DNA from: Clostridia bacterium
GTDB taxonomy: Bacteria > Bacillota > Clostridia > Oscillospirales > CAG-272
NCBI GenBank assembly: GCA_017398595.1
Contig: JAFQFR010000020.1
Location: 9,196 to 73,195, forward strand
Length of the DNA stretch: 64,000 nucleotides
Direction of reading: 5' to 3'
The position numbers and the translations under genes were made by a program. The notes under the pieces were generated by a model, which saw nothing but the letters and a program-made list of their open reading frames with translations, did no database searches and had not been told where the DNA came from. Of this stretch, positions 13,023-60,897 are shown one piece after another (the stretch's first letter is position 1; the number at the start of each line of letters is the position of its first letter).

Positions 13023-14996
13023 TTAGTTCTTCTTTTTCTTAAGAACAACTACAACGATTGCAGCTACTACAACAACTGCGATCACGATACCAACGATCAG
13101 ACCGACATTTGCGCCGTCATCCGTCGGGGTGGTAGCAGGAGCAGCAGTGGTTACTGCGGGAGCATCCGTAGTTGCAGGAGCATCCTCGGTTGCAACAGGA
13201 GCAACAGTGGTCTCTGCGGGAGCAACGGTAGTCTCTGCAGGAGCTACAGTAGTAACAGCTGCAGGAGCATCGGTGGTCGTCGCAGGAGCAGCAGTGGTAA
13301 CTGCCGCATCAGCAGTAGTCGTTGCAGGAGCAGTCGTAGCAACAGGCTCTACAGAGGGAGCTGCCGTGGTAACTGCGGGAGCATCCGTAACAACGGGAGC
13401 ATCGGTAACTACAGGAGCATCCGTAACTACGGGAGCATCCGTAACTACGGGAGCCTCGGTAACAGCAGGAACCTCGATTGCGCCTACGATCTCAGCGTTA
13501 GGATGGTAACCTGCGTTCAAGAGAACTGCCTCTTCGCCGTATACGGTAACCTTGAGGTTATCCCAGTAAGCGGTATCGAGGTTAACCTGTGCATCCATAG
13601 CTACGCGCATACGGAAACCGAAAGAACCTTCGTACCACTCGGAAATAACCTGGGTATCCGTCCAAATAACTTCATCGCTGCCTACTGCGGTAGCAGTGGT
13701 AGTGAACGTACCGTCACCGGGATAGGTAACCTTGATGTGGTAATTTCCACCGGGATTGATCACAGGCTCGCCTACAACCAGGTTTCCGCCCCAGTTGCCT
13801 TCCCAGTTACCATAACCTACTGCAAACTTGGTAGCATCGTTGGCAATAAAGGAAGTATAGCCGTAGAAAGAGTTAGAATTCGGACGGCTTGCTGCCTGAG
13901 ACAGGTCTGCATGCGTAAGAATACCTGCAGAAGTCTGTACATTGTAGATGTCTGCCTCAACGGTATAGTTCTTCAGCAGATTTGCATCATGGTTAGCCGA
14001 GTACAGAATGAAGGAGAAGTTAGAGGTTGCATCGAAACCGGAAGTCAGCGCGCTGTAGTACAGACCGCCGTTCTTGATGGTCCACTCACCGCGATACTGG
14101 GTGAAATCGCTGATGGTTGCGGGATCCGAGAAGTCATTCGAATAGAATACATACTCGCTCTTGCTTGCATCCAGCTTGGAGGACTCAACCTTAACAACCT
14201 CGGGAACGGTTACTTCGATCGCATCGGTATGTGCAACAACAACAGCGTTGTTCTCAACACCGGAATTGTAATCTGCAAGAGACTTGCCTGCTGCGAGCCA
14301 ATCGCCGACTTCGCCGATAGCGGTAACCTTCAGGTTATCAAAGCCGACAGCACCCATGTTGATCAAACCGGAGTTCATACCAACCATACGGAAACCGAAA
14401 GAACCAAGTGCCCACTCGTCATTCTCCATTGTATAGTTGAAAAGCTCTACACCGGTATCCTTATCAGTTACAATGTATGTAAGATTTTTGCCTTCTACTT
14501 TGCAGTAGAGGTGCAGGTTTGCACCGGGAGCAGTTACATCCGTACCAACATGCAGGTTACCCTTCCAGCCGTCGGAAGCATCTGCACGACCGATTGCAGG
14601 CTTGCTGCCGGTGAAGCTGAGGAACATCTGATAACCATAGAATGCATTGGACGTAGAGTTGTTCGCCTTGGTAATATCGCAGCGAAGCAGAGGACCGCCC
14701 TGCGACTGGACATTCATCATATCTACTTCCAGGATATAGTCAGTGAGGTTCATAACGCCCTGATCCTTGGTGTAGAGCAAGAAGAACTGCTGCGCAAAGT
14801 CCAGATCACCGACATCGGTCAGCATCAGCTGTCCGTCAACGATGCCCCATACGCCGCGGTACTGGGTGAAGTCTGCAAGAGTGTTTGCATCCGAAAAATC
14901 ATTTTCGTAGTAAACATACTCCGCAGCGTTCGCAGTCATAACCATGCCGAAAACGAGCAGAATGGTTGCAACTGCAATTGCCAAAAGTTTTCTCAT
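13023..14996 (-). CDS. Secreted, membrane-tethered protein A: signal peptide, two concanavalin-A/DUF1080-like lectin-fold domains, T/A/P/V-rich stalk, C-terminal TM helix and KKKKN
   Basis: 657 aa. Signal peptide MRKLLAIAVATILLVFGMVMTANA. The module EYV(Y/F)Y.NDFSD...FTQYRG.W.I..G.L is internally duplicated. Stalk contains APVVTD x4-5. Tail is DDGANVGLIVGIVIAVVVVAAIVVVVLKKKKN. GGAGG RBS present. Confidence 0.85.
   Translation of the reverse strand: MRKLLAIAVATILLVFGMVMTANAAEYVYYENDFSDANTLADFTQYRGVWGIVDGQLMLTDVGDLDFAQQFFLLYTKDQGVMNLTDYILEVDMMNVQSQGGPLLRCDITKANNSTSNAFYGYQMFLSFTGSKPAIGRADASDGWKGNLHVGTDVTAPGANLHLYCKVEGKNLTYIVTDKDTGVELFNYTMENDEWALGSFGFRMVGMNSGLINMGAVGFDNLKVTAIGEVGDWLAAGKSLADYNSGVENNAVVVAHTDAIEVTVPEVVKVESSKLDASKSEYVFYSNDFSDPATISDFTQYRGEWTIKNGGLYYSALTSGFDATSNFSFILYSANHDANLLKNYTVEADIYNVQTSAGILTHADLSQAASRPNSNSFYGYTSFIANDATKFAVGYGNWEGNWGGNLVVGEPVINPGGNYHIKVTYPGDGTFTTTATAVGSDEVIWTDTQVISEWYEGSFGFRMRVAMDAQVNLDTAYWDNLKVTVYGEEAVLLNAGYHPNAEIVGAIEVPAVTEAPVVTDAPVVTDAPVVTDAPVVTDAPAVTTAAPSVEPVATTAPATTTADAAVTTAAPATTTDAPAAVTTVAPAETTVAPAETTVAPVATEDAPATTDAPAVTTAAPATTPTDDGANVGLIVGIVIAVVVVAAIVVVVLKKKKN
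13376..13466. repeat. In-frame 18-bp tandem repeat (about 5 units) encoding APVVTD in the stalk of protein A
   Basis: gggagcatccgtaactac-type units read directly. The peptide is VTEAPVVTDAPVVTDAPVVTDAPVVTDAPAVT. Confidence 0.85.
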
Positions 14997-15216: not shown

Positions 15217-17166
15217 TTAATTCTTCTTTTTGAAAATCACTGCAGCAATTCCGACAACCGCAACCACTGCAATAACAATGCCAACGATCAAAACAACATT
15301 GGCGCCGCCTTCCACTTGTGTAGTCGCAGGAGCAACAGTTGTGGCAGGTGTATCTGTTACCGCAGGCGCTGCAGCCGTCTCGGAAGCAGTCGTTGTTTCT
15401 GCTGAAGCAGCCGTCGTAACTACGGGCGCTGCAGTAGTCTCCGCAGGGGCTGCGGTCGTCTCGGGAACAGCAGAAGTCTCTGCCGGAGCAGCTGTGGTCA
15501 CTGCGGGAACCGTACCGGTCGCAGCAGTGACTGCCGTGGTAACTGCGGGCGCTGCGGTGGTCGCAGCAGTCGTCTCTGCGGGTGCTGTAGTAGTCTCTGC
15601 CGGAGCCGCGGTCGTCTCTGTGGGAGCGACGGTAACGGCAGGAATGCTGATCTCCCCTACGATCTCTGCGTTGGGATGATAGCCTGCATTCAAGAGAACT
15701 GCCTCTTCACCATATACCGTAACCTTGAGATTGTCAAAACCGGTATTATCCAGCGAAACCAGGCTGTCCATAGCCGCACGCATGCGGAAGCCGAAAGAAC
15801 CGGTGGGCCATTCTGCGGTGACCTGCGTATCCGTCCAGATCACATCGTTACTGCCGACAGCAGTGATCGTATAGATCATCATACCGTCTGCACACTCAAC
15901 TTTAAGATGATAGTCTCCGCCGGGATTCAGAAGAGGTTCGCCGACTGTCAAGCTACCTCCCCAGCCGCCTTGCCAATCACAATAACCGGTCGCACCCTTG
16001 GTGCCGTCATTGGAAATGAAAGAAAGATATCCATAGAAAGAGGTCGCGGTGTCACTGTCTGCCTGCGACAGATCAGCGTGCGTGATCACGCCGGATGCCG
16101 TCTGCGAATTGTGAACATCGACTTCCAACGTGTAATTCTGCAACAGATTTGCATCGTGATTTCCGGAATACAGAATAAAAGTGAAGTTGCCGGTCTCTTC
16201 AAAGCCGGTCGTCTTCGCGCTGTAATACAGGCGTCCGTCCTTGATCGTCCATTCGCCGCGATACTGCGTAAAATCCGCGATCGTAGCAGGATCCGAGAAA
16301 TCATTCTCGTAGAATACATATTCCGTCTTGGTTGCGTCCAGCTTGGAAGCTTCCACCTTTACGACCTCGGGAACAGTTACTTCGATCGCCTCGGTAACCT
16401 TGGGAACGATAACATTCGAGGCAACGCCGGGCTTGTAATCCGCAAGAGACTTACCGGCTGCAAGCCAATCGCCGACTTCACCGATAGCAGTGATCTTGAG
16501 ATTGTCAAAGCCGAGAACACCAAGGTTGATCAAGCCGGATTGCATGATCGCAGCACGGAAACCAAACGAGCCGTACGCCCACTCATCATTGTCGAGCTCG
16601 ATCGTGTACAGCTCACTGCCGGTATTCAGATCGGACATTATATATGTAATATGGGTTCCCTCATAGGTTACCTTGAGATGCAGGTTGGCACCGGGATTGG
16701 TCACTGCGGGGCTGACGTGCAAATTTCCCGCATATGCACCAAGACCGTTGCCGCGACCGAACGCACTCTTAGTACCGTTGTTGCTGAGAAATGCTATGTA
16801 GCCGTACCAGCCGTTCTCCGTTTCCGCCTGCGCCTGCGTGATATCGCAACGAGACATCAGACACGCTGCAGATTGTGTATTCATCAGATCCACTTCTGCA
16901 ATATAGTCGGTCAGATTCATAACAGCAGGATCCGCAGTGTACAGCATGAACGCAAATTTACTCAGGTCTTCAACATCGCCCGGTCCAACCAGCATTAACT
17001 GTCCGTCAATAATATCCCATTCGCCGCGATACTGCGTAAAATCGGAAAGTGTCTTCGGATCCGAGAAGTCGTTTTCGTAATATACATACTCTGCCGCACC
17101 CACGGTCATAGCCATGCCGCATACGAGCAGGATCGATGCAATTACGATGGTCAAAATTTTTTTCAT
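15217..17166 (-). CDS. Secreted, membrane-tethered protein B (paralog of A)
   Basis: I trimmed the start to ATG 17166 (MKKILTIVIASILLVCGMAMTVGA, GGAGGT RBS). The two-domain architecture matches A, with shared blocks ITAIGEVGDWLAAGKSLADY and VTVYGEEAVLLNAGYHPNAEIVG. Tail is VEGGANVVLIVGIVIAVVAVVGIAAVIFKKKN. Confidence 0.85.
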   Translation of the reverse strand: MKKILTIVIASILLVCGMAMTVGAAEYVYYENDFSDPKTLSDFTQYRGEWDIIDGQLMLVGPGDVEDLSKFAFMLYTADPAVMNLTDYIAEVDLMNTQSAACLMSRCDITQAQAETENGWYGYIAFLSNNGTKSAFGRGNGLGAYAGNLHVSPAVTNPGANLHLKVTYEGTHITYIMSDLNTGSELYTIELDNDEWAYGSFGFRAAIMQSGLINLGVLGFDNLKITAIGEVGDWLAAGKSLADYKPGVASNVIVPKVTEAIEVTVPEVVKVEASKLDATKTEYVFYENDFSDPATIADFTQYRGEWTIKDGRLYYSAKTTGFEETGNFTFILYSGNHDANLLQNYTLEVDVHNSQTASGVITHADLSQADSDTATSFYGYLSFISNDGTKGATGYCDWQGGWGGSLTVGEPLLNPGGDYHLKVECADGMMIYTITAVGSNDVIWTDTQVTAEWPTGSFGFRMRAAMDSLVSLDNTGFDNLKVTVYGEEAVLLNAGYHPNAEIVGEISIPAVTVAPTETTAAPAETTTAPAETTAATTAAPAVTTAVTAATGTVPAVTTAAPAETSAVPETTAAPAETTAAPVVTTAASAETTTASETAAAPAVTDTPATTVAPATTQVEGGANVVLIVGIVIAVVAVVGIAAVIFKKKN

Positions 17167-17412
17167 AGTGCATACCTCCGTAGAAATCAAATTATCCGGT
17201 AACCGCGAGGAACTTATCCATCGCTCAACATAAATATACACCATTCGCGTCTTAAATTGAATACAAAAAATCAAGATGTTTGTTCAAAAACAACACATCT
17301 ATTCGTATAAATCAAATGTATTTGTTCATCTCGCGCAAAACAAATACGTTTAAAAAGAAAGAGAGCCGAACGCGATCACCGTCAAAACGCGATGCATTCG
17401 ACTCTCATAAAG

Positions 17413-26513: not shown

Positions 26514-26880
26514 GGGGGCGTAAAGGTTTCGACGGGGATTTTGAGGTATGATAAGCGGGTAGAGGTCGGGGATCCTCTCTAAAAGCTCCAACTTAAAATT
26601 AAACGCTAACGATAACGTAGCACTGGCAGCGTAAGCTGTGCCGCTGCTTTTTCAAGCAGCCCGTCAGACCGTTGAGGACCACGGCTTCGGATCTGGCGTC
26701 ATGCAGTGGTAAATGTGCACCGCCCGTTTGCTTTTGAAGCGGTCATAAAGAAAAAAGCTACCAAACCGTTACCCCCGTGCACCGGGGTGCGGCGCGGGAA
26801 ATCTTAAAGGTGTCCTGCACCCGGAGAAAGTTATATCAAGGGATTTTCGGACGGGGGTTCGATTCCCCCCGCCTCCACCA
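26514..26880 (+). ncRNA. ssrA: tmRNA (SsrA)
   Basis: The 5' end GGGGGCGTAAAGGTTTCGACGGGG pairs with the 3' end CGCCTCCACCA, including the G3-U pair. T-arm is GGGGGTTCGATTCCCCC. The tag reading frame is 26605-26634: gct aac gat aac gta gca ctg gca gcg taa, giving ANDNVALAA. Confidence 0.95.
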
Positions 26881-27041: not shown

Positions 27042-27066
27042 CAACTAAATCCACCCTTACGGGTGG

Positions 27067-27170
27067 GTGAAATATTGCTTCGCAATGTGAAATACGCCTG
27101 CGGCGTGTGAAATCGCTGCGGCGGTGGGTGGATTTAATTTCACATTTTGCCGCAAGGCAAAATATTTCAC
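27067..27170. repeat. Phased GTGAAAT heptamer array (3 direct copies at exactly 20-bp spacing, 1 degenerate, 2 inverted)
   Basis: GTGAAAT at 27067, 27087 and 27107. GTGGATT at 27128. ATTTCAC at 27137 and 27164. Each unit carries a different short GC hairpin (attgc-ttc-gcaat, acgcc-tgc-ggcgt, ttgcc-gcaa-ggcaa). Confidence 0.8.
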
Positions 27171-31771: not shown

Positions 31772-34700
31772 TTACTTTTCCAGATTTACGCAATAGCGCT
31801 GGAAGAGCGTCGCTACTTCGGCGCGAGTCGCATTGCTGCTCGGGTCGAAGACCTTATTATCCTTGCCCTGCATCAAGCCGTGCATCGTCATGTAGCATAC
31901 GGACTCATATGCCCAATCGGAGATCTCGGCACGGTCGGTGTAGTCGAGCAAGAACATCCACATGCCGGTGAAGCCGCCGCCATTCTTCTGAATGTAGCGG
32001 TACAGCATCGTTGCCATCTGTTCGCGGGTGATGCTGTCATCGGGCGCGAAGGTCGTCGCGTCATAACCCTGTACGATCCCCTCGGATGCCGCCCAGCGAA
32101 TAGCCTCGGCATACCATGTATCCTGATCCACATCCTCAAACCGCATCAGATAGTTGACCACGGGACTGCCCTCAAAGCGCCACAGCATCGTCACAAACAT
32201 CGCGCGGGTCGTCTCTGCACCGGGCATGAAAAGATCATCGGAGCATCCGACCATCAGACCATTGTCGAGGCAGTAATGCACGCCGTCGTGGTACCATTCA
32301 GATCTGTCGAGGTCGGTATAGCCGTACATCGGGCAGGTATTGTCACGCGGGCAAACCTTGACGGTCGCCTTGAACGTCACTTTGATATTGACCTTGCCGG
32401 TCGGCTGCTTGAAGCTGTACGTGCCGTCACCTTTGTCCGTAACAGTTACGGGATCGCCGTTTTTGTCGGTAACAATGATCTCGTCAACCTCATAGCCTGT
32501 ATCGGGAGCGGGGGTAACGGTTACAGTGTCGCCCTTTTCGGGTTTTGCGGGAGTCACGGTCACGTCACCGTTATCGCCGCTATCCACAGTGGGAGGATAG
32601 GTGGTAGTAGTAGACGTATTGCTCGAAACGTAGACACGGGTCCACTTTGCATAAAACGTCTTCGCACCGGTATCCGAAGCGGTGATCTCCGTTACGGGAG
32701 TACCCGTGCAGGCTTCGTTATCGTACCAGCCATCGAAGCTGTAACCGCTTCTCTTGACATTGGTCGGAAGTGTCGCGCCGATACCGTACGTGTACTCGGT
32801 TACATTGCCATCGCGGACCGTGCCGCCGTTTGTAACAAGCGTGACGGAGTAGGTATCAGCCGTCCACTGCACATAAAGGGTAACTTCACAGCCGCCGTTG
32901 CCATTGTCATCGGCAAACGTGAAGGTGTCGCCGCCGCTGTAGCTGTCGCCGCTGCCGTCAGCCTTCGTGTTCCAGCCGGCAAAGGTATGGTATACCCGGC
33001 TCGGCTGATTCGAGGACACCGTGATTGTCACTCCGCCGGTGTAATGGCTACCCGGAGCGTTTTCGCCACCGTTTGCATCATAGGACAGGGTGTTGGCTGC
33101 ATGAAGGATCTTGACATTCTGTGCCTTTTCGCCGACAGCAACGGATTCTGTTACGGTGATGCCGACATTGTCTTTGAGCGAAGCGGTCACCGCTACTTTA
33201 TATGTACCGCCGTCGGAGACGTTGCCGTCCAAACGCAAGACCGCATCGGTTGCACCGTCGATCGGTGTGCCGTCCTTATACCACTGATAGCTGTAATCCA
33301 GTACCTCGTCATTTCTGTTGCTGACTGTTGCCGTCAGGATACGGGTGGAATTACCGGGAACATAGTACTGGTAAGTGTCCGAGATCGCACCGGGTACTTC
33401 CAATGTGATCTTTACAGTCGGCGCAAGAACCTTTCGCTGTACAAACAGCGTATGATCTCCCGCAGTTTCAACAACTGTCAGCTTGCTGATCTTCGTATCC
33501 GTAACATTGCCGCTTTCATCCACCAGATACCAGTTGCTGTCACCGCCGGACAGACCGGTGATCGCAGAGGACGGGAGCTTGCCGTACTTCTCACCGAATG
33601 TTACGGTGATGGGATCGATCGCCGCACCGCCGTTTGCGTTAAACGAAACTGTGTAGGTGTTGGGGCTTACTGTCAGCGTGCCGTCCTGCAAAGTGAACGT
33701 GTAATTGTCGCTGACATCCGTTTCTTCAGAGTCTTTGACCACAGGCGTGCCGGAGATCGTGATGGTGTAAGTGCCTTCTGCGGTAAGATCGGCATCGGCG
33801 CATACCGCCGTGATACCGCTGACCTTAGGACCATCCTCTTCATCGTAACTTTCATCCCAACCGGTGACGGTGTAGGTGTATTCCGGTGCACTGCCGCCCA
33901 CGCTTACGCTCTTGTTGTCTGCCGTGATCGTCAGAGGACGCTTGGCAACCTCGTATGTTACAGAGGCGGTTACGCCATTGTAGGTGATGGAAGCCGTGTA
34001 AGTTCCCGCATTCACAGGATCTGCACTGTACACAATGTCCTCGGAATCAAGCGAGATCTGATCTGTGTATCCGTAGAGAGAAGCGGTATGCCACAGCCCC
34101 TCTGTATAAACAGCATCCTCGGGCGCAACGATCTGTACAAGCGCCACTTTTCCGTCCTTGGGACAGTTATCCTTGGTACAGGTAGCAAAGATAGTGTCGT
34201 TTTCGGTGATGGTCGTACCCAGCGTATAACCGCTTTCGTCAAAGACATGGACGTGCTCCAGCACCGTGAGTCCGCCGGAGATGGGATTGAAGTCGTAATT
34301 GTCGGCAGTCATTCCGTCAGTGTTGACTTCGATGAAGTAATACCCCTCTTTGGACATATCCGGCGTCTCATCATAGGTCAGCACGGGTGTGCCCGTGATG
34401 CCTGCCGTTTCCGCCGTCTCACCGTTTACAAATCCGGTAACAGTGTAGGTAGGCGTGGGGCAATCGTCGCCCACTTCGGCAAACAGATCGTCTGCCGTAA
34501 CGTCCAGCAATACTTTCTCAACGGTTGCTTCCACACAGGCGGGAGTGCTTTCATCGTTGTCGCCCAACGCCTTGTACCACACGTAGTAGGTACCGGCATT
34601 CGTTGCTGTGGGGATGTCGGTGCTCCAGCCGTCCGTGGGAGCAGTTTCGCCGTTATTACTCAGTGCATACTGCATCACGCCGCTGTAAGCAGTGCCGGCA

Positions 34701-37700
34701 GTGACAAGCGCCTGAGACTGTCCGGAGTAAGTAGGATATTCCGGATAAGGTTCTTCTTCCACCTCAGTAGCGAGAACAACATTTATCTTCTCCTCCCACA
34801 CCACATAGTAACTGACCGTCGGAGAATTACCGATCGCCACATCCAGTTCCACGATATCTGCGGCAAGATCGTACGCTTCAAAAACGGAAAATACTGCCTG
34901 CACAAGATTCGTGTTAAAGTTAATGTCATACGACGTATCTTTGCCGAAATTGATAGCTACGGGTATACAAGTCCCCGAAGAATTAAATATCAGCAAGTCT
35001 GTGGGGCCGAATTCCGTCATATTCTCGCCTTTGACCGTAATGATCAGAGGATGCTCTGTGCTGACGGTAAATGTCTTGGTATCGGCGTCGTATGCGGAGC
35101 TGTCGCTGTTGAACGTCACACTCGTGATCTTCGGCACAGCGTATTCCCCGGTATCTTTCACCACATCGTAATATCCGGTTTCCTTGTTATATACAGCACC
35201 GTATCCATCGGCTACCCATTCACCCGGGTGGACTATGAAGGAACCGCCAGTGATGGAGCAAGCGGCGTCAGGTTGGACTGTAACTACATTCTTGAAGGTG
35301 CCGCCGCTGATATTCAGCGTACCGCTAAATGCCCCAACTACACCTTCAAAAATACCGTCCTCGATCTTTGCCGTATTATTAAATGCCAGATACGGCTGGA
35401 AAACTCCGTCTCCAGCGGTATCTACGATGGTCAGCTGGCTATATGCCACAAACTGAGAGAAACCATTTTCTTCTGCGTCAATTACTTTTTTTCCGTTCAG
35501 GTCCAGGGTGAACACGCCGGAGTTGACCGTAAAGTCATATAGCGTAACGTCTTTCAGCAGCTTCAGAACCGCGTTATCCTCTGCGCTCGCATTTTCCAGC
35601 GCGGTCACAGCACTCTCAAGATCGGCGTAGAGCGTCGTCGTGCCGTTGGCGGTCACGGAAGCAGCCGCGTTATCGAGCGTGAGCTCCTTAAAGACTGCTG
35701 TCACAGTGACGTTGCCGGCAGGCATGGTGAAGGTGTACTCGCCGTCCTCGCCCTTGGTGGCGGTCACAGGGGTCTCGCCCTGCTTAACCGTCAGCGTATC
35801 CGGTACATAGCCGCCATCCGGCACGACCGTCACAGTGACGGTAACCCCTGCGGCGGCAAAGTTTTTATCCGCCATGACGAAGCCATTGGTGATACTGTCA
35901 TCCACCGTAACGCTGTATCCGACAGCATACTTCACCGTCTTGGCAGGGGTAAAGTTAGCATAGTCATCCTCGGTGCCGATGGAGGTATAGTAAACGCCGT
36001 AGGCTTCAAAACTGCCGGTCACATAGTCCGCAGGCTCGCTGACAGCCACTTTGTCCGTGCCGATGCCGCTGTACGCTGCGATGGCAGCCGTATTGCCGCT
36101 GATCTCAACGGGGGTGCTGACGGTCAGCATCCCGTTCGTGAAGATGCCGCATAAGCCGCCGCTGATCTTTCCCACCGTCGCGTTTTCCGCAAAGGTCACG
36201 CCGCTGTCCGCGTAGATGCCATAGCCGTATTGAGAGCTGCCGGTTATATCGCCCACTGTACCGCTGATGGTCACGCCACCGGTCGCGAAGATGCCGCAAT
36301 CGTTACCTGTGATGTCACCGTCTACCGTGCCGCTGACGGTCACACTGCCTTCGGCGTAGATACCGAGGCTGCTGCCGGTGATGTCACCCATGGTGCCGCT
36401 GACGGTCACACTGCCGACCGCGCCGATGCCCTTGCCGCCGGTGCCGGTGATCTGATTGGTGCCGATGCCGTAAACAATGAGGTCGCCTTTAGCCTGGGTT
36501 CCGTCGTCGCCGCCGTAATAGATAGCGGCATTCTTATATCCCTTGCCCTCATAGGTGTAGTTGTTGAGGGTCAAGGTATTGGTGTCGGGGTCGTAGGTTG
36601 CCGTACCGCCGTTTGCATCGGTGATAGTCAGCTTTGCGGAGTTGAACTGCTCACCGCCGACCCACAGAGAATATTTTTCTCCCCAGATCGCATAGAGCGT
36701 TATATTTTCCGTTACGTCAACCGTAGTGGTTGTTATCGCTTCACCGTCAGCGCTCAGTGCCCAGCCTGCGAACGCTTTATCCGTAGGCGCGGTGAAGCCG
36801 TTTGCGGGGAGTGTGTATTCGCCCGAAACGTCGGGTACATCATCCATCGTGCCCGTACCGCCGTTTGCGTTAAAGGAAACGGTGTAAGTAGTCGCGGGCG
36901 CCTTCGCCTCAAACACAGCTGTCAAATTGCGGTCAGCACTTGCCGTGAAGGCATAGCTTGCATCGGTGCTGACAGCACTGTCGTTTTCCGTCCACTTGAC
37001 GAAGGTATAACCGTCATTTGCAGTCGTCGTAACGGTAACGGACGCGTTTTCTTCGTACGTGCCGCTGCCTGTAACTGTACCGCCCTCTGCGGGAGATGCG
37101 GTGACGGCTACGGTGTAGGTGGTGGGTTTGGGGTCAGAACCGCCCTCGTTGAAATATTGCGGTGTGGCAGACGCATCGTGATAGACCACCTTACCGTCAA
37201 ACACCGGTGTCTCATGTGTCTTGAGCGTCTGATACCATACCAAATCATCCCCCTCGGATGTAGAACCGTTCAGGAGATAGCATACTTCGCCCGATGCAAA
37301 CTCCTCGGCGGTCTTACCTGTGACGCCGTTATAATCTGCATCTCCGACTGCGCCGTATGATGCGCCTGTTGTGTTATAATAGCAATTTGTCGCCGTTCCG
37401 CTTAAGTAACCGGCAAAATTTCCGAAAGCCCAATTGGAGATTGTGCCTGTTACAAGAATATCGCCATAGTTGTAACAATTCGTAATCGAGCCTGCAAAAG
37501 AACCGACCAAACCGCCGACTTGATTACTACTCGAATTGCTTCCCGATATAATTATGTCGCCGAGACTATAGCAATTTTCAATAACAGCATCACCGCTGGA
37601 TGTGCCGCTTCCTCTTCCGACAATACCGCCAAGAGGATTTCGGTTGGTTGAAACCCACACAATATCGCCTGTATTAACACATTTTTTGACAGTGGAAGCA

Positions 37701-38542
37701 TATGTCATATCACCGATAATACCACCGCCGATGCCTGCAGATAATATTTTACCCTCATTCCTGCAGTCTTCAATCACAGCTGTGCCGCCGCCCACAATTC
37801 CGGCTGCTCTTTCTGATGTGGCTTTTACGGTTGCCTTGTTGACGCAGTTTATAATGCTCCTTTTGGAAGCTGTTCCGCCGTCACTTGTGTAGCCGATAAT
37901 TCCGCCTACCCACGTGCTGCCAAGAATATATGAGTCATCCAAAGTGAGGTCTTTAATTGTAATCGCATTGGATAATGCAACAAATCCAACATACAGATCG
38001 GACGCGGTATCGGTTGACACAAGACCGCTTACGGTTTTGTTATTTCCGTCAAAAATTCCGCACATACGACTACGGCTGGCTCCGATAGGATTCCACTGCA
38101 AAAATGTGCCGGTGTTCAAATCGCCGTTAGCATCAAGAACATTTGTGTTGACGGTAATATCGTTTATCAGTACCGCATTGACTTTAACCTCGGTATATGC
38201 AAAATATTTGGTAGTTGTACCGATAGTTGCCTCATCAACACTCTTTGCAAACCAGTAAAGCTGACCTGCATTCTCGATCGCATAGTAGCCGCTATGCGAA
38301 GCATTTAACTCGGAGTGGTGTGTTTCACTCACCTGCTTCGCAGGCTGATAGTGTGTTGCATCTGCCGAGCAAAATCCGCTTGCATTATATGTTCCCGCAC
38401 AGTCTGTTGCGTCGCAAGGGGTGGTTGTGCTGCTTGCGGTTTCTGCACTTGCCGACAGCGTAAAGCCCGGCAGCATGCCCACCACCATGATGATAGCGAG
38501 CAGCATGCTCAGTATTCTTTTTGAAAATTTTGTTTTTGTCAT
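31772..38542 (-). CDS. Giant S-layer-homology-anchored surface protein (GLUG repeats, Listeria-Bacteroides repeats, beta-helix-like repeats, 3 C-terminal SLH domains)
   Basis: 2256 aa. Signal peptide MTKTKFSKRILSMLLAIIMVVGMLPGFTLSASA. GLUG-like GG(I/L)VG...I.NCYN.GDI repeats. YTVSFNANGG...F.GW repeats. The C-terminus has FEDVDQDTWYAEAIRWAASEGIVQGY and two further SLH units. Confidence 0.9.
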   Translation of the reverse strand: MTKTKFSKRILSMLLAIIMVVGMLPGFTLSASAETASSTTTPCDATDCAGTYNASGFCSADATHYQPAKQVSETHHSELNASHSGYYAIENAGQLYWFAKSVDEATIGTTTKYFAYTEVKVNAVLINDITVNTNVLDANGDLNTGTFLQWNPIGASRSRMCGIFDGNNKTVSGLVSTDTASDLYVGFVALSNAITIKDLTLDDSYILGSTWVGGIIGYTSDGGTASKRSIINCVNKATVKATSERAAGIVGGGTAVIEDCRNEGKILSAGIGGGIIGDMTYASTVKKCVNTGDIVWVSTNRNPLGGIVGRGSGTSSGDAVIENCYSLGDIIISGSNSSSNQVGGLVGSFAGSITNCYNYGDILVTGTISNWAFGNFAGYLSGTATNCYYNTTGASYGAVGDADYNGVTGKTAEEFASGEVCYLLNGSTSEGDDLVWYQTLKTHETPVFDGKVVYHDASATPQYFNEGGSDPKPTTYTVAVTASPAEGGTVTGSGTYEENASVTVTTTANDGYTFVKWTENDSAVSTDASYAFTASADRNLTAVFEAKAPATTYTVSFNANGGTGTMDDVPDVSGEYTLPANGFTAPTDKAFAGWALSADGEAITTTTVDVTENITLYAIWGEKYSLWVGGEQFNSAKLTITDANGGTATYDPDTNTLTLNNYTYEGKGYKNAAIYYGGDDGTQAKGDLIVYGIGTNQITGTGGKGIGAVGSVTVSGTMGDITGSSLGIYAEGSVTVSGTVDGDITGNDCGIFATGGVTISGTVGDITGSSQYGYGIYADSGVTFAENATVGKISGGLCGIFTNGMLTVSTPVEISGNTAAIAAYSGIGTDKVAVSEPADYVTGSFEAYGVYYTSIGTEDDYANFTPAKTVKYAVGYSVTVDDSITNGFVMADKNFAAAGVTVTVTVVPDGGYVPDTLTVKQGETPVTATKGEDGEYTFTMPAGNVTVTAVFKELTLDNAAASVTANGTTTLYADLESAVTALENASAEDNAVLKLLKDVTLYDFTVNSGVFTLDLNGKKVIDAEENGFSQFVAYSQLTIVDTAGDGVFQPYLAFNNTAKIEDGIFEGVVGAFSGTLNISGGTFKNVVTVQPDAACSITGGSFIVHPGEWVADGYGAVYNKETGYYDVVKDTGEYAVPKITSVTFNSDSSAYDADTKTFTVSTEHPLIITVKGENMTEFGPTDLLIFNSSGTCIPVAINFGKDTSYDINFNTNLVQAVFSVFEAYDLAADIVELDVAIGNSPTVSYYVVWEEKINVVLATEVEEEPYPEYPTYSGQSQALVTAGTAYSGVMQYALSNNGETAPTDGWSTDIPTATNAGTYYVWYKALGDNDESTPACVEATVEKVLLDVTADDLFAEVGDDCPTPTYTVTGFVNGETAETAGITGTPVLTYDETPDMSKEGYYFIEVNTDGMTADNYDFNPISGGLTVLEHVHVFDESGYTLGTTITENDTIFATCTKDNCPKDGKVALVQIVAPEDAVYTEGLWHTASLYGYTDQISLDSEDIVYSADPVNAGTYTASITYNGVTASVTYEVAKRPLTITADNKSVSVGGSAPEYTYTVTGWDESYDEEDGPKVSGITAVCADADLTAEGTYTITISGTPVVKDSEETDVSDNYTFTLQDGTLTVSPNTYTVSFNANGGAAIDPITVTFGEKYGKLPSSAITGLSGGDSNWYLVDESGNVTDTKISKLTVVETAGDHTLFVQRKVLAPTVKITLEVPGAISDTYQYYVPGNSTRILTATVSNRNDEVLDYSYQWYKDGTPIDGATDAVLRLDGNVSDGGTYKVAVTASLKDNVGITVTESVAVGEKAQNVKILHAANTLSYDANGGENAPGSHYTGGVTITVSSNQPSRVYHTFAGWNTKADGSGDSYSGGDTFTFADDNGNGGCEVTLYVQWTADTYSVTLVTNGGTVRDGNVTEYTYGIGATLPTNVKRSGYSFDGWYDNEACTGTPVTEITASDTGAKTFYAKWTRVYVSSNTSTTTTYPPTVDSGDNGDVTVTPAKPEKGDTVTVTPAPDTGYEVDEIIVTDKNGDPVTVTDKGDGTYSFKQPTGKVNIKVTFKATVKVCPRDNTCPMYGYTDLDRSEWYHDGVHYCLDNGLMVGCSDDLFMPGAETTRAMFVTMLWRFEGSPVVNYLMRFEDVDQDTWYAEAIRWAASEGIVQGYDATTFAPDDSITREQMATMLYRYIQKNGGGFTGMWMFLLDYTDRAEISDWAYESVCYMTMHGLMQGKDNKVFDPSSNATRAEVATLFQRYCVNLEK

Positions 38543-41933: not shown

Positions 41934-42899
41934 TTAGTTCTTTTTCTTTTTGAGAACGATTACAACGATTGCAACGACTACAACGATCGCAGTAACAATG
42001 CCGATGATGAGACCGACATTAGAGCCGCCCTCCTCTGCGGGAGCGGTAGATGCTGCGGGAGCAGTCGTGGTGGGCGCAGCGGGCGCTGCGGTTGTAACTG
42101 CGGGAGCCTCTGTCGTCTCCACGGGTGCTTCGGTGGTTTCTGCGGGAGCAGCCGTCGTAGTTACAGCGGGAGCTGCGGTAGTCTCTGCGGGAGCAGCGGT
42201 GGTAACTACAGCAGGTGCTGCGGTCGTAACCACGGGAGCCTCGGTCGTAACAACAGGTGCGTTGGTTACAGCGGGAGCATTCTCATCGCCGTAGGTCAGC
42301 ACAGTACCGCCGAGGTTCTCGATGGTGAAGGTCTCTTGTGCAGCCTTGGAAAGGATCGCAGTGCCGCCGAGCTCAACGACGATCTTGTAGTGATAGTCAT
42401 TGCCGGGCTTGGTCTGCAGAATAACCGAATCCGTTACGGTAAGCGTCGTACCGAGACCGACCTTGATGGTGTTCTGATTGTTCTCCTGGAACAGAATGAT
42501 GTCATCAAAAACAACATTGCTCTGGAGCGTCAGCGTTGCACCGGTCGCCATCTTGAATGCGCAGGCAGGGTTCTCTGCGGGTTCGGGATTCTTGTAGTCA
42601 ACGCCGTTGTACACGCTGGTGATGGTCAGCGTATCGGACATTGCGGGCATGGTGTAGCTTGCGCCGAGATATGCTTTACCAACGGCAACAAGCGTACCGC
42701 CGTTTTGCAGCAGACTCATAACGCCGGCATCCTCAAAAGTCTTCCAGGACTTCTTGGGCGTATCGGGCGTCAGACCGTCATACGCGTCGTTTCCGCCCCA
42801 GCTGACATATGCAACCGTTTCATCCGCAGCAAACGCGGTCAGCGAAAAAGTGCACAACAAAAGCAGAGCTGCAAGCATAACAGAAAGAATTTTTTTCAT
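41934..42899 (-). CDS. Secreted, membrane-tethered protein C (short beta-helix-like domain, T/A/P stalk, TM helix and KKKKN)
   Basis: Start trimmed to ATG 42899 (MKKILSVMLAALLLLCTFSLTAFA, GGAGG RBS). Tail is EEGGSNVGLIIGIVTAIVVVVAIVVIVLKKKKN. Confidence 0.85.
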   Translation of the reverse strand: MKKILSVMLAALLLLCTFSLTAFAADETVAYVSWGGNDAYDGLTPDTPKKSWKTFEDAGVMSLLQNGGTLVAVGKAYLGASYTMPAMSDTLTITSVYNGVDYKNPEPAENPACAFKMATGATLTLQSNVVFDDIILFQENNQNTIKVGLGTTLTVTDSVILQTKPGNDYHYKIVVELGGTAILSKAAQETFTIENLGGTVLTYGDENAPAVTNAPVVTTEAPVVTTAAPAVVTTAAPAETTAAPAVTTTAAPAETTEAPVETTEAPAVTTAAPAAPTTTAPAASTAPAEEGGSNVGLIIGIVTAIVVVVAIVVIVLKKKKN

Positions 42900-43213: not shown

Positions 43214-44551
43214 TTACTTGGTGATGGTTGCGGTGGAAGTTGCGCCGTCCCATGCTACGGTGCCGCCGAGGGTTTCAGCGACAAAACGTACGGGCATGTA
43301 AGTGCGATCATTTTCGATGAACGCGGGGGAATCGAGTGCTACGCTCTTGCCGTTTACGGTTGCATTTGCCGCACCGACCGTAATCTTGATCTCGGTGTCA
43401 GCCGTTTTGAGCGTTGCAGTGGAGGTTGCACCGTCCCAAGCGATCTCAGCACCGAGAGCCTCGGCTACATAACGTACAGGAAGCATGGTGCGCTCGTTGC
43501 GGATGATGGGAGCAACGTCCATGGTCTTGGTTTCGCCGTTGAGCGTGTAGGTGGTCTTGCCAAGCGTCATCTTGAGTTCCACTGCAGGACCGGTGGGAAT
43601 CTCGTCAACATAGTTTACCTTGTCGAAGAAGAGAGAAATGATCTTTGCATCTACGTTGGGAGTAGCATACAAAGTAGCCGTACCGTCAACTACGAATTCA
43701 GCAATAGCTGCTTCCACGCTCTTGGATGCATTGCCTACTGCACCGCCGGAGAAGTTAACGGTAGTCTTGCCCATTACGTTGTTCAGCACGAGACCGCCGA
43801 TCGTACCACCGGTGATGTTTACAACGCAGTTACCGTTCAGACGACGGGTGCCGTCTCCGCCGGTATAAACATTGGTAATGTTGCCGCCCTTGATATTGAT
43901 CTCTCCATGGCCGCCATAGTTGCCGTTAACGCACGCGCCGTAAACAGATCCGATTTCGCCACCCTCAACAGTGATATGTGAGGTACCGGTGAACTCGTAA
44001 TCACCTGCGCTGCGGCTGTGACCTGCGATCAGATAATAGTTACCGCTCTTGATCGTAACATCCGAATCCTTGTCAAATACCGCCGCATCGTCAAGAGGCA
44101 ACTGATAACCACCAACGATATACGCCTTGGTGCCGGCGTCAATGATGCCTTCGCCCATGATCAGCTTGTTGTAGCGTGCAACGATCAAGTGGGTAGTGCC
44201 TGCCGCATACGAGAAGGTAATATTCTCAAACGTGGTGGAACCGGGACCGCTGAGGAACCAGCGATTGTACTTTCCGTGTGAGAACACATACTTGCCGCCG
44301 GTGATCACGATGTTGCCGACATGCTCGGGCTCGTAATACTCTTCTGCGCAGGTATACGTATCTACGATGATGACTTTACCGCCGTCTGTAGCGATCTTAT
44401 TGATCGCTTCGGTCATGTTGCCAAGGGGCTTGTCAGCCGCAGAGCCGTCACCGGTACCGCCGTCATTGACATACACGTCTGCTGCGGATGCCGCTACTGC
44501 GAGCATAACGCAAAGAATCGCTGCGAGGAAAATGCCAAGATACTTTTTCAT
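43214..44551 (-). CDS. Secreted beta-helix-like protein E with two C-terminal copper-amine-oxidase-N-terminal-like (stalk) domains
   Basis: Start trimmed to ATG 44551 ([23 protein letters not shown]). The N-terminal 330 aa are paralogous to protein D. The C-terminus has TLNGETKTMDVAPIIRNERTMLPVRYVAEALGAEIAWDG and a second similar unit. Confidence 0.85.
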   Translation of the reverse strand: MKKYLGIFLAAILCVMLAVAASAADVYVNDGGTGDGSAADKPLGNMTEAINKIATDGGKVIIVDTYTCAEEYYEPEHVGNIVITGGKYVFSHGKYNRWFLSGPGSTTFENITFSYAAGTTHLIVARYNKLIMGEGIIDAGTKAYIVGGYQLPLDDAAVFDKDSDVTIKSGNYYLIAGHSRSAGDYEFTGTSHITVEGGEIGSVYGACVNGNYGGHGEINIKGGNITNVYTGGDGTRRLNGNCVVNITGGTIGGLVLNNVMGKTTVNFSGGAVGNASKSVEAAIAEFVVDGTATLYATPNVDAKIISLFFDKVNYVDEIPTGPAVELKMTLGKTTYTLNGETKTMDVAPIIRNERTMLPVRYVAEALGAEIAWDGATSTATLKTADTEIKITVGAANATVNGKSVALDSPAFIENDRTYMPVRFVAETLGGTVAWDGATSTATITK

Positions 44552-44587
44552 AGGAACCTCCAAATATAAAATTTTTGAAATAAAAAA

Positions 44588-45919
44588 TTATTTCTTTTTC
44601 TTAACATATACTACCACGATCACTGCGACAACGACTACAACCAGAGCGATACCGATGATCAAACCGATATTAGAGCCGCCATCCTCTGCGGAAGTAGTAG
44701 GAGCTGCGGTGGTCGTTGCGGGTGCTGCGGTAGTAACCGCAGGTGCCTCGGCAGTCTCTATAGGAGCGGCAGTGGTCACTGCGGGTGTTGCAGTCGTTTT
44801 TGCAGGAGCTGCGGTGGTCACTACGGGTGCTGCGGTGGTCACTGCGGGAGCTGCGGTGGTCGCTGCGGGAGCCGCGGTGGTCGCTGCGGGAGCTGCGGTG
44901 GTCGCTGCGGGGGCTGCGGTGGTCGCTGCGGGAGCTGCGGTCTGTGCGGGCGTTTCATCCGGGATCGCACTGACATAGTTGACCTTGTCAAAGAAGAGCG
45001 AAATGATCTTTGCATCTACATCGGCAGTTGCATTCAACGTTGCCGTACCATCAGTAACGAACATTGCTATTGCAGGCTCGACCGTCTTTTCTGCGTTGGC
45101 AACAGAACCGCCGGAGAAGTTGACCGTGGTCTTACCCATAACATTGTTGAGAGAAAGGAGCGTGACCATGCCGCCGCTGATGTTGACAGTGCAATCACCG
45201 TCGAGTCGGCGGGTTGCATCACCGGCAGTACGAAGATTGTTGATCGTGCCGCCCTTGATATTGATCACAGCATTGCCGGAATAGTTACCGTTAACGCTCG
45301 CACCGTATACAGTTGCTATTTCGCCGCCTTCTACAGTGATGTGCGCTGTTCCGACGAAAGAATACTCAGAGTTGCCGCGACTATGACCTGCTACCAGCCA
45401 ATAGTTGCCACTCTTAACCGTAACATCGGAATCCAGATCAAATACAGCTGTATCGGTCAAGGGAACCTGATAACCGCCGATAACGTACGCTTTACCGCTT
45501 GCATCAAAGGACAGTCCTTCACCAAGAACCAACTTGTTATACTGTGCGATGATCAGCGAAGTAGTGCCCGCACCGTACTCAAAAGACATGTTCTCAAAAG
45601 TGGTGGAACCGGGACCGCTGAGGAACCAGCGATTGTACTGCCCCTGTGAGAACACATACTTGCCGCCGGTGATCACGATGTTGCCGACATGCTCGGGCTC
45701 GTAATACTCTTCTGCGCAAGTGTAGGTGTCAACGATGATGACCTTACCGCCGTCCGCACCGATCTTATTGATCGCATCGGTCATGCTGCCGAGCGGCGCA
45801 TCCGCCGAGGAACCGTCGCCGGTACCGCCATCGTTGACGTAAACATCTGCTGCGGATGCCGCTACCGCAAGCATCATGCAAAGCAGTGCCGCCAGAAAAA
45901 TGCCAAGAAACTTTTTCAT
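44588..45919 (-). CDS. Secreted, membrane-tethered beta-helix-like protein D (paralog of E with T/A/P stalk, TM helix and KKKK)
   Basis: Start trimmed to ATG 45919 ([31 protein letters not shown]). Tail is [32 protein letters not shown]. Confidence 0.85.
44803..44948. repeat. In-frame 24-bp tandem repeat (about 6 units) encoding AAPAATTA in the stalk of protein D
   Basis: ggagctgcggtggtcgctgcggga-type units. The peptide is [36 protein letters not shown]. Confidence 0.85.
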
Positions 45920-47268: not shown

Positions 47269-47339
47269 GTATTTATACCCCCTTGTGATACGCAAATAAA
47301 ACCTGTGGTTATGCAGGCTTTATTTGCATAGCATTGTAT

Positions 47340-59738: not shown

Positions 59739-59744
59739 CACTAC

Positions 59745-59953: not shown

Positions 59954-59988
59954 AAACAGCCGATCCGCAGGATCGGCTGTTTTTTCTA
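59954..59988 (+). terminator. Riboswitch expression-platform terminator
   Basis: aacagccgatcc-gca-ggatcggctgtt followed by tttttt, 20 nt before the dapA ATG. Confidence 0.8.
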
Positions 59989-60894: not shown

Positions 60895-60897
60895 GCC

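What the first reader, a model, noticed from the sequence alone, without database searches (positions are those of the whole stretch)
13023..13124. Four secreted proteins of three unrelated architectures share a sorting-signal-like tail: GG[AS]N, a TM helix, then KKKK(N)
The four tails are as follows. Protein A (13023-13124) ends DDGANVGLIVGIVIAVVVVAAIVVVVLKKKKN. Protein B (15217-15315) ends VEGGANVVLIVGIVIAVVAVVGIAAVIFKKKN. Protein C (41934-42035) ends EEGGSNVGLIIGIVTAIVVVVAIVVIVLKKKKN. Protein D (44588-44686) ends [32 protein letters not shown]. All four have N-terminal signal peptides and a low-complexity T/A/P stalk just before the tail. The consensus is [DE][DEG]G[AS]N[VI]xLI[VI]GI, about 18 hydrophobic residues, then K3-4. 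This is the tripartite layout (short motif, TM helix, basic cluster) of known C-terminal sorting domains such as LPXTG, PEP-CTERM and especially GlyGly-CTERM. The encoding DNA differs at many synonymous positions between the four genes, so conservation is at the protein level and not from recent copying. No sortase, exosortase or rhomboid-like gene lies in this window. The tail could be a plain type I anchor, or the substrate tag of an unlinked and possibly undescribed processing system.
Basis: partly seen in the sequence, partly recalled or inferred. Interest (0 to 1): 0.65.

Follow-up and report, generated by a model that had tools for sequence, protein, structure and literature searches.

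The report
Shared membrane-anchor tail on surface proteins
Four secreted proteins in this gut Clostridia genome piece end in the same short tail, which is most likely a lineage-typical membrane anchor that holds sugar-binding proteins on the cell surface, common in gut Clostridia, missed by curated sorting-signal models, and without any sign of a processing enzyme.

Summary
Four minus-strand genes (A, B, C, D) encode signal-peptide proteins that end in a T/A/P stalk, then [DE]xG[AS]N[VI]xLI[VI]GI, a 22-residue V/I/A helix and KKK(K)(N). The DNA pattern matches 4 times against 0.00 expected. Synonymous sites are near saturation, so this is not recent copying.

The tail is a widespread module. 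225 cluster representatives match at E≤1e-3. A truncated species-level genome scan gave at least 111 true tails, about 100 of them from gut or rumen Clostridia, on 53 unrelated body clusters and often several per genome.

No curated model reaches its cut-off on the four window tails with a signature motif aligned. This covers LPXTG, Rumino_NPXTG, GG_III-CTERM, Firmicu-CTERM and GlyGly-CTERM.

In homologues chosen by body, the tail is swapped for Cu_amine_oxidN1, SLH or true [TN]PxTGD sortase signals, so it acts as a surface-retention module.

I found no sortase, rhomboid or exosortase-like gene in the window or among 482 neighbouring ORFs. The GLIIGI core is dispensable in homologues. The conserved Asn sits at the predicted helix N-cap. 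Animal type I membrane proteins also hit the tail profile.

Best reading: an unprocessed type I stop-transfer anchor (about 0.6). An undescribed sorting signal with an unlinked enzyme is not excluded (about 0.25).

The parts
13023..14996 (-). Protein A (657 aa): signal peptide, two concanavalin-A-like/CBM66-like lectin-fold domains, about 120-aa T/A/P stalk, and tail DDGANVGLIVGIVIAVVVVAAIVVVVLKKKKN
   Evidence: ORF and translation. AF2 mean pLDDT 84, body >90, stalk <50, terminal helix 631-656. Foldseek best hits are BT3469 4jqt at E 7e-13 and CBM66 4b1m at TM 0.78, plus legume lectins.
13023..13124 (-). Tail of A (the coordinates given in the finding): juxtamembrane DDGAN, a 22-residue V/I/A helix with GLIVG (GxxxG), then KKKKN and stop
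   Evidence: Asn630 lies immediately before the predicted helix.
15217..17169 (-). Protein B (650 aa), a paralogue of A (60% identity) with tail VEGGANVVLIVGIVIAVVAVVGIAAVIFKKKN (tail at 15217-15315)
41934..42899 (-). Protein C (321 aa): signal peptide, body with no Pfam hit, T/A/P stalk, and tail EEGGSNVGLIIGIVTAIVVVVAIVVIVLKKKKN (tail at 41934-42035)
   Evidence: Its 90% cluster includes MBQ4598903.1 from a Clostridia MAG. C-like bodies with this tail occur in L016, L020, L037 and L097.
44588..45919 (-). Protein D (443 aa): signal peptide, beta-helix-like body, stalk of 21-nt repeats (44700-44941), and tail [32 protein letters not shown] (tail at 44588-44686)
   Evidence: AF2 mean pLDDT 82, stacked beta strands at 24-315, helix 418-442. 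Foldseek gives only weak matches, mostly beta-helix proteins.
43214..44551 (-). Paralogue of D (445 aa). It is 77% identical over the first 320 aa, then carries a Cu_amine_oxidN1 domain in place of the stalk and TM tail. This is an anchor-module swap.
   Evidence: Pfam PF07833 at E 4e-55. BLASTP.
31772..38542 (-). Context: a 2256-aa surface protein with Flg_new and MBG repeats and C-terminal SLH domains. It shows a third surface-retention mode in the same window.
   Evidence: Pfam.

Best explanation
The tail is a lineage-typical C-terminal type I membrane-anchor module of gut and rumen Clostridia. It is not shown to be a cleaved sorting signal.

Proposed mechanism:
1. The N-terminal signal peptide sends the protein through Sec (inferred from sequence).
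2. The body folds outside the membrane. For A and B it is a tandem ConA-like lectin fold, and for D it is beta-helix-like (AF2 and Foldseek).
3. A disordered T/A/P stalk of 95-130 residues, encoded by repeats, acts as a spacer through the wall (inferred).
4. The last 32 residues stop translocation (inferred from the positive-inside rule and from what is known of Gram-positive 'hydrophobic tail' proteins).
   - An acidic residue plus Gly-Gly marks the outer boundary.
   - Asn (or Pro/Ser) caps the helix.
   - A helix of fixed length, about 22 residues and made almost only of V, I and A, spans the bilayer. It often starts with a GxxxG(xxxA/G) face.
   - Three or four lysines at the very C-terminus stay in the cytoplasm.
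5. The mature protein stays tethered by this helix.

The module is evolutionarily interchangeable with other surface-retention devices: Cu_amine_oxidN1, SLH and [TN]PxTGD sortase signals.
For: Architecture. Signal peptide, stalk, single terminal helix and K-run are present in all four proteins. AF2 shows the disordered stalk and the terminal helix, which starts one residue after the conserved Asn.

Generality. 225 representatives match at E≤1e-3, nearly all at the extreme C-terminus. A DNA scan that specified only GLI[IV]GI, a 16-aa gap and KKK gave 111 true tails out of 126 matches. Of these, 99 stop within 1 residue after the K-run, and N is at position -2 in 75 of 111. The tails sit on 53 body clusters.

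Function as a retention module. D and its neighbouring paralogue swap the tail for Cu_amine_oxidN1. Among 112 D-body homologues, 90 have a TM tail, about 14 have Cu_amine_oxidN1, 1 has SLH, and the distant ones have NPSTGD or PPTGD. A-body homologues show the same spread, including TPxTGD signals.

Against the need for an enzyme-read motif. In the body-selected samples the GLIIGI core drifts to GAIIGI, NPVVIAVI or SSTTVIII, while TM length and the KKKK end persist.

Generic physics. Oyster, mantis-shrimp and nematode proteins match the tail profile. The oyster and mantis-shrimp ones are type I proteins with the same boundary pattern.

No enzyme found. No sortase, rhomboid, CPBP or exosortase-like gene is in the window or among 482 neighbouring ORFs.

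Precedent. Unprocessed C-terminal hydrophobic-tail surface proteins are an accepted class in Gram-positives (PMC4010754).
Against: - By Haft's published heuristics (PMC3237569), this pattern is what 'may strongly imply' an undescribed sorting system. The features are a paralogous C-terminal domain with motif, TM helix and basic cluster, 0-5 residues after the TM, many copies per genome, and body families whose other members carry LPXTG-type signals.
- The [DE]GG boundary is conserved inside an otherwise hypervariable stalk. It lies 26-28 residues before the K-run in 34 of 43 de-replicated D-family tails. Topology alone would not require that much conservation.
- The tail coexists with sortase-type signals on the same contigs (L083, L093) and differs from them in composition, so it has constraints of its own.
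- Absence of a neighbouring enzyme is weak evidence, because many-to-one sorting enzymes are usually unlinked.
- Retention of the C-terminus in the mature protein has not been measured.
Confidence: 0.6

Rival explanations
1. The tail is a genuine, so far uncurated C-terminal sorting signal of Clostridia. After Sec export and membrane arrest, an unlinked many-to-one enzyme would recognise the [DE]GG[SA]N-GLIIGI region, remove the helix, and release or re-attach the protein. The enzyme could be a rhomboid-like or other intramembrane protease, or a new transpeptidase.
For: - Tripartite layout at the extreme C-terminus, with 0-3 residues after the K-run in about 90% of cases.
- Many copies per genome on unrelated bodies: 4 in this window and 5 in Oscillospiraceae SIG694, even in a truncated scan.
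- Conserved [DE]GG and N positions that the search pattern did not specify.
- Body families that elsewhere use sortase signals.
- Small or helix-weakening residues (GG, N/P, GxxxG) at the outer end of the helix, which is where rhomboid-type substrates are cut (PMC3237569).
Against: - No candidate enzyme in the window or in 482 neighbouring ORFs.
- The motif is degenerate. G, S or K occur at -4, N, P or S at -2, and the GLIIGI core is lost in homologues.
- The Asn position is explained by helix capping.
- The same pattern occurs in metazoan type I proteins and in small Bacteroidales proteins.
- No curated sorting model reaches its cut-off on the window tails.
Confidence: 0.25
2. The tail is a degenerate sortase signal, with xSNTG or GANVG standing in for [LTN]PxTG, and is still processed by a clostridial sortase with relaxed specificity.
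For: - Isolated tails touch Rumino_NPXTG (35 of 101 at E≤0.015, best 2e-5) and LPXTG_anchor (32 of 101).
- T-G precedes the helix in about 45% of survey tails.
- Distant body homologues carry real NPSTGD, PPTGD or TPxTGD signals.
Against: - There is no Pro at the P position, and none of the four window tails has Thr (ANVG, ANVV, SNVG, SNIG).
- The HMM alignments on tails of this class start at model positions 3-11 and do not cover the pentapeptide.
- True sortase-type tails in the same families have a different TM composition (A/L/C/F-rich) and longer basic ends (KKREN).
- Both classes coexist on single contigs, which argues for two distinct systems.
Confidence: 0.05
3. The similarity is only compositional or due to chance: low-complexity hydrophobic ends that look alike.
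For: The TM segment is low-complexity (V/I/A). Generic TM-plus-basic regions from many unrelated models give weak hits.
Against: - 4 matches against 0.00 expected in the window.
- Position-specific conservation outside the hydrophobic run, and fixed spacing.
- pN/pS of 0.16-0.48 with synonymous sites near saturation.
Confidence: 0.03

Closest known systems
C-terminal 'hydrophobic tail' (type I, stop-transfer) surface proteins of Gram-positive bacteria, for example Listeria ActA (PMC4010754)
   Same: N-terminal Sec signal, a single C-terminal membrane-spanning helix followed by positive charges, no processing required, and the protein displayed on the surface.
   Different: Listeria tails are not described as a conserved paralogous sequence family. 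Here the juxtamembrane [DE]GG[SA]N, the GxxxG start, the V/I/A-only helix of fixed length and the KKKK end recur across at least 53 protein families and many genera.
LPXTG-type and NPXTG-type sortase sorting signals (TIGR01167, NF033846 Rumino_NPXTG)
   Same: Tripartite layout, extreme C-terminal position, a preceding wall-spanning low-complexity region, and use on the same body families. The TM-plus-basic half aligns weakly to these models.
   Different: There is no [LTN]PxTG pentapeptide. The four window tails score below cut-off except A alone on LPXTG_anchor (16.7 bits against 15.9), and that alignment covers only model positions 7-34. The TM composition and the basic end differ from the true TPxTGD tails of distant homologues.
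GlyGly-CTERM / rhombosortase (TIGR03501; PMC3237569)
   Same: A Gly-containing motif at the outer end of a terminal TM helix, a basic cluster, 0-5 trailing residues, many-to-one paralogy, and body families that swap anchors.
   Different: TIGR03501 gives no hit, even at E≤10. GlyGly-CTERM is essentially proteobacterial and is defined by co-distribution with a rhombosortase. No such enzyme or co-distribution is shown here.
NCBIfam NF041738 GG_III-CTERM ('GGIII-like transmembrane region-containing protein')
   Same: This is the nearest curated sibling by alignment. Model positions 3-27 align to LI[IV]GI...KKKK, so both describe a Gly-started aliphatic terminal helix followed by Lys. The curators' name is neutral about processing.
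   Different: Scores are below the 22-bit cut-off: 7.9-13.5 bits for the three window tails that hit (B had no hit) and at most 19.5 bits for relatives. I could not read the model's description or its membership.
GxxxG / glycine-zipper TM helix packing motifs (glycophorin-A type; from general knowledge)
   Same: G-L-I-[IV]-G-I-x-x-[A/G] puts small residues on one helix face in most tails.
   Different: The motif is dispensable in body-selected homologues (NPVVIAVI variants). Oligomerisation is untested.

Membership tests
LPXTG/sortase sorting signal (TIGR01167) | [LTN]PxTG-like pentapeptide cleaved between T and G | tested here: not met
   The window tails read DGANVG, GGANVV, GGSNVG and GGSNIG, with no P-x-T-G. 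LPXTG_anchor alignments on tails of this class begin at model positions 3-11 and do not cover the pentapeptide.
LPXTG/sortase sorting signal (TIGR01167) | Hydrophobic segment plus basic residues at the extreme C-terminus | tested here: met
   Tail A alone scores 16.7 bits (cut-off 15.9) from this half only. The whole proteins do not hit.
LPXTG/sortase sorting signal (TIGR01167) | A sortase in the same genome | not testable with these tools
   None in the 64-kb window or in 482 neighbouring ORFs. The whole genome was not available. Sortase-type substrates coexist on L083 and L093.
GlyGly-CTERM / rhombosortase (TIGR03501) | Match to the TIGR03501 profile | tested here: not met
   Not listed for any of 14 tails at E≤10, and not among the 25 of 32 families shown for 101 tails at E≤0.015.
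GlyGly-CTERM / rhombosortase (TIGR03501) | Gly-rich motif, TM helix and basic cluster, with 0-5 residues after the TM | tested here: met
   [DE]GG lies 26-28 residues before the K-run in 34 of 43 tails. About 90% end within 3 residues after the K-run.
GlyGly-CTERM / rhombosortase (TIGR03501) | Co-distribution with a rhombosortase-subfamily rhomboid protease | not testable with these tools
   No rhomboid-like neighbour was found. Genome-wide profiling could not be run.
Rumino_NPXTG (NF033846) | Score of at least 23.5 bits with the NPXTG motif aligned | tested here: not met
   Window tails score 8.2-14.1 bits from model position 8 onward. Among 101 survey tails the best is E 2e-5, which I estimate at about 25 bits, from xSNTG variants without N-P. 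True NPSTGD and PPTGD homologues align from model positions 1-2.
GG_III-CTERM (NF041738) | Score of at least 22 bits | tested here: not met
   7.9-13.5 bits for window tails A, C and D, with no hit for B. At most 19.5 bits for consensus-like relatives. Best E 1.6e-3 among 101 tails.
Firmicu-CTERM (TIGR04145) | Score of at least 50 bits | tested here: not met
   No hit for the window tails. Relatives score 11.7-11.8 bits.
Plain C-terminal hydrophobic-tail (type I) membrane anchor | Cleavable N-terminal signal peptide plus one C-terminal TM helix followed by cytoplasmic positive charges, with no further domain | tested here: met
   Sequence. AF2 helices at 631-656 in A and 418-442 in D, after a disordered stalk.
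Plain C-terminal hydrophobic-tail (type I) membrane anchor | The mature protein keeps its C-terminal helix | not testable with these tools
   Needs proteomics or tagging.

The most novel reading that the evidence does not exclude
The [DE]GG[SA]N-GLIIGI-(V/I/A)n-KKKK tail would be a previously undescribed CTERM sorting domain of gut and rumen Clostridia. A dedicated, unlinked and still unidentified processing enzyme would read it. That would define a second surface-protein sorting pathway working alongside sortase in these bacteria.
Probability: 0.22. Interest if true: 0.65.

Novelty: new member of a known kind. Interest (0 to 1): 0.38.

Why it matters
Gut and rumen Clostridia are mostly uncultured, and their surface proteins are largely annotated as 'hypothetical'.

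A simple profile for this tail would flag a large set of membrane-tethered, outward-facing proteins across Oscillospiraceae, Lachnospiraceae and Ruminococcus. Those modelled here have lectin-like or beta-helix-like bodies. It would also separate them from sortase substrates, which the generic LPXTG_anchor model can confuse them with when only the TM-plus-basic half matches.

If the tail proved to be processed, it would point to a new sorting enzyme in abundant gut bacteria. If it is not processed, it is still a useful annotation rule and an example of how strongly a plain anchor can be conserved.

Tried and rejected
1. The word-index protein search with the tail profile returned only short fragments and missed the window's own proteins. 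I replaced it with the exhaustive HMM search and a DNA-pattern scan.
2. Full-text searches for GLIIGI, GLIVGI, GGIII, NPXTG and GVDTG found nothing on such a tail.
3. Recent gene conversion or copying of the tails is rejected: nucleotide identity is 60-75% and pS is 0.48-0.81.
4. I looked for a linked processing enzyme. Clustering 482 neighbouring ORFs gave sugar ABC transporter parts, ABC exporters, HTH_3 membrane regulators, DUF624, SLH proteins and Wzy_C. Motif searches for sortase TLxTC, rhomboid GxSG and CPBP EExxxR found nothing credible.
5. Unannotated window ORFs were checked as possible hidden membrane enzymes and rejected. None is polytopic, and several are antisense artefacts.
6. 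I considered the Asn as a bacterial N-glycosylation sequon (D/E-x-N-x-S/T). It does not fit, because position +2 from the Asn is Gly.
7. I considered the tail as a replacement used where sortase is absent. This is rejected because sortase-type signals coexist on L083 and L093.
8. The Foldseek hit of D to Rhombotarget A (9cdu, E 7.8) is not significant and reflects generic beta-helix resemblance.
9. I did not walk along the source contig to look for an enzyme. It would add only about 77 kb, so the expected yield was low.
Full report
**Observation**

The four tails exist exactly as quoted, all on the minus strand.
- A: 13023-14996, 657 aa.
- B: 15217-17169, 650 aa.
- C: 41934-42899, 321 aa.
- D: 44588-45919, 443 aa.

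A six-frame scan for ORFs ending in a hydrophobic run plus K/R finds only these four in the window. A degenerate DNA pattern for G[AS]N[VI]xLI[VI]GI matches 4 times, against 0.00 expected in 100 shuffles. The Asn-to-Lys distance is 22 residues in all four.

The tails are 60-75% identical in DNA. Synonymous sites are near saturation (pS 0.48-0.81) while pN is 0.10-0.25. Conservation is therefore at protein level and is not due to recent copying. A and B are paralogues (60% identity). C and D share only a weak N-terminal resemblance.

**Context**

The source is a ruminant-gut Clostridia MAG. The window holds:
- a dcw cell-division cluster and housekeeping genes;
- ABC exporters;
- a 2256-aa SLH-anchored repeat protein;
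- a TetR gene and an FAD/Rieske oxidoreductase;
- a DUF5107/TPR protein;
- a lysine-riboswitch dapA-dapB-lysA operon;
- tmRNA and Gut-1 RNA.

There is no sortase, rhomboid, exosortase or other polytopic candidate enzyme.

**What is anchored**

AF2 with homologue alignments gives confident bodies, disordered stalks and a terminal helix. A and B are two concanavalin-A-like/CBM66-like lectin-fold domains (BT3469 4jqt E 7e-13; CBM66 TM 0.78). D is beta-helix-like, with weak matches that are mostly to beta-helix proteins. The stalks are encoded by imperfect 18/21/45-nt repeats.

**The tail is a widespread module**

An exhaustive HMM search of 1.84 billion representatives with the four-tail profile gave 225 hits at E≤1e-3. 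Almost all are at the extreme C-terminus of signal-peptide proteins. The consensus is E-x-G-S-N-[VTI]-G-L-I-I-G-I-V-A-A-V-V-V-V, then KKKK. The K-run starts 15-17 residues after the GI, and 118 of 132 proteins end within 3 residues after it.

I then scanned one genome per species with a pattern that specified only GLI[IV]GI, a 16-aa gap and KKK.
- 111 of 126 matches are true tails.
- About 100 come from gut or rumen Clostridia: Oscillospiraceae, Lachnospiraceae, Ruminococcus, Faecousia, Acetatifactor, Butyrivibrio and Faecalibacterium.
- Several genomes carry multiple copies.
- Positions the pattern did not specify are strongly biased. N is at -2 in 75 of 111, G at -4 in 64, E/D at -6 in 65, and 99 stop within 1 residue after the K-run.
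- The bodies fall into 53 BLAST clusters, 33 of them singletons.

**Comparison with curated models**

Whole proteins hit no NCBIfam sorting model. The results for isolated tails are below.

| Model | Cut-off (bits) | Window tails | Relatives |
|---|---|---|---|
| LPXTG_anchor | 15.9 | 12.2-16.7; only A passes, aligned to model positions 7-34 | several of the tested relatives pass (17.3-18.4), still without the pentapeptide aligned |
| Rumino_NPXTG | 23.5 | 8.2-14.1 | best E 2e-5 among 101 (about 25 bits by my estimate), from xSNTG variants without N-P |
| GG_III-CTERM | 22 | 7.9-13.5 (no hit for B) | at most 19.5 |
| Firmicu-CTERM | 50 | no hit | about 12 |
| GlyGly-CTERM | not seen | never listed | never listed |

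In these searches, NCBI-sourced tail-bearing homologues that carry a name are 'hypothetical protein'. Full-text searches found no description of the tail.

**Samples chosen by body, not by tail**

Of 112 homologues of the D body:
- 90 end in a TM+KKKK tail;
- about 14 end in Cu_amine_oxidN1;
- 1 ends in SLH;
- the most distant carry NPSTGD or PPTGD signals.

Of 88 homologues of the A body:
- 62 have the tail, and 5 more have a KGKKK variant;
- 15-18 have Cu_amine_oxidN1;
- five single-domain relatives carry TPxTGD, then an A/L/C/F-rich TM and KKxxN.

D's immediate neighbour is a 77%-identical paralogue that carries Cu_amine_oxidN1 instead of the stalk and tail. The tail is therefore one option among several surface-retention modules.

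Within these samples the GLIIGI core is not invariant; GAIIGI, NPVVIAVI and SSTTVIII variants occur. The [DE]GG boundary (26-28 residues before the K-run in 34 of 43), the helix length and the KKKK end persist. Sortase-type signals coexist with this tail on the same contigs (L083, L093). The two classes are therefore distinct.

**Search for a partner enzyme**

Among 482 ORFs flanking the survey tails, the recurrent families are:
- sugar ABC transporter components;
- ABC exporters;
- HTH_3 membrane regulators;
- DUF624;
- SLH proteins;
- a Wzy_C protein.

No sortase-, rhomboid- or CPBP-like protein appears. This is weak negative evidence, because many-to-one sorting enzymes are usually unlinked (PMC3237569).

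**Interpretation**

The simplest mechanism that fits everything is a type I stop-transfer anchor:
- Sec export;
- an extracellular lectin-like or beta-helix body;
- a wall-spanning disordered stalk;
- an acidic/Gly-Gly boundary;
- Asn at the helix N-cap, since the AF2 helices start one residue after it;
- a fixed-length aliphatic helix;
- a cytoplasmic Lys cluster.

Such unprocessed hydrophobic-tail surface proteins are an accepted class in Gram-positives (PMC4010754). The generic nature of the boundary is underlined by oyster, mantis-shrimp and nematode proteins that match the tail profile. The oyster and mantis-shrimp proteins show the same boundary pattern followed by long cytoplasmic extensions. 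Small Bacteroidales proteins carry it too.

Haft's published criteria for suspecting a new sorting system are all met except the decisive one, a co-distributed enzyme. The conservation of [DE]GG in a hypervariable stalk also exceeds what topology alone needs.

My probabilities are:
- unprocessed anchor, about 0.6;
- undescribed sorting signal, about 0.25;
- relaxed sortase substrate, about 0.05;
- compositional coincidence, about 0.03.

**Verdict**

- The feature is real, widespread and not captured by curated models, but it belongs to a known kind (C-terminal TM anchor or sorting-like domain). Its nearest curated sibling is GG_III-CTERM.
- Interest is moderate to low unless a partner enzyme is found.

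Noticed in passing
window 43214-44551 (-): This paralogue of D is 77% identical over 320 aa. It ends in a Cu_amine_oxidN1 domain instead of the stalk and TM tail. The same swap recurs in many homologues of both the A and the D bodies, so these are 'choice of anchor' families.
   Followed up: yes
window 21813-23741 (-), plus two DUF4330 genes downstream; L020 180-~2100; L097 ~6195: A 642-aa Wzy_C (O-antigen-ligase-like) membrane protein lies 4.6 kb upstream of B's start. The same family lies within 6 kb of tail genes in two other loci. It might glycosylate the T/A/P stalks, or the proximity may just be conserved synteny.
   Followed up: partly
window 26514-26880 (+) and 27042-27118 (+): A tmRNA gene (161 bits) is followed within about 160 nt by a Gut-1 RNA motif (95 bits), an orphan sRNA family from gut metagenomes.
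   Followed up: no
window 59743-59915 (+), 60007-62953 (+): A lysine riboswitch lies upstream of DapA-like and DapB-like ORFs and LysA. The 514-aa minus-strand ORF at 59986-61530 is therefore a spurious antisense ORF.
   Followed up: partly
window 13129-13509 (+), 15230-15679 (+), 41950-42294 (+), 44367-44978 (+): Long ORFs antisense to the stalk and tail regions are artefacts of the repetitive GCN/GTN/ACN codons. The stalk DNA consists of imperfect 18/21/45-nt tandem repeats, for example 21 nt x 11.5 copies at 44700-44941.
   Followed up: yes
L008, L023, L084, L119 (Bacteroidales MAGs): Signal-peptide proteins of about 90-100 aa carry the same tail (…GKTSVGLIIGIVAAVIVIGGAAVMLTRKKK). Their neighbours are conserved: a sugar-phosphate-isomerase-like protein, a Gfo/Idh/MocA-like protein and a TPR membrane protein. 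So the tail also occurs in diderm bacteria.
   Followed up: partly
P0136 (Crassostrea gigas XP_011450892), P0156 (Oratosquilla oratoria XP_076042826), P0009 (Meloidogyne enterolobii): Animal proteins score E≤1e-4 (oyster, mantis shrimp) or E 0.015 (nematode fragment) against the tail profile. The oyster and mantis-shrimp sequences read acidic-S/P-N-x-GLI[IV]GI, then a basic cluster and long cytoplasmic extensions.
   Followed up: partly
L011 ~5093, L018 ~6522, L036 654 and 1543: Transcription-regulator-like proteins with an HTH_3 (XRE) domain and 4-6 TM helices sit next to tail-protein genes in five loci.
   Followed up: partly
L083 and L093: ORFs ending in LPKTGD… and TPKTGS… (sortase-type signals) lie on the same contigs as proteins with the tail studied here.
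   Followed up: yes
window 31772-38542 (-): A 2256-aa surface protein with Flg_new/List_Bact repeats, MBG domains and C-terminal SLH domains. The organism therefore also uses SLH-mediated wall attachment.
   Followed up: partly
window 46171-47295 (-): A 374-aa ORF directly upstream of D has no signal peptide and no Pfam hit. It looks glycoside-hydrolase-like by eye (…VWNMFNEIGN…), and its function was not tested.
   Followed up: no
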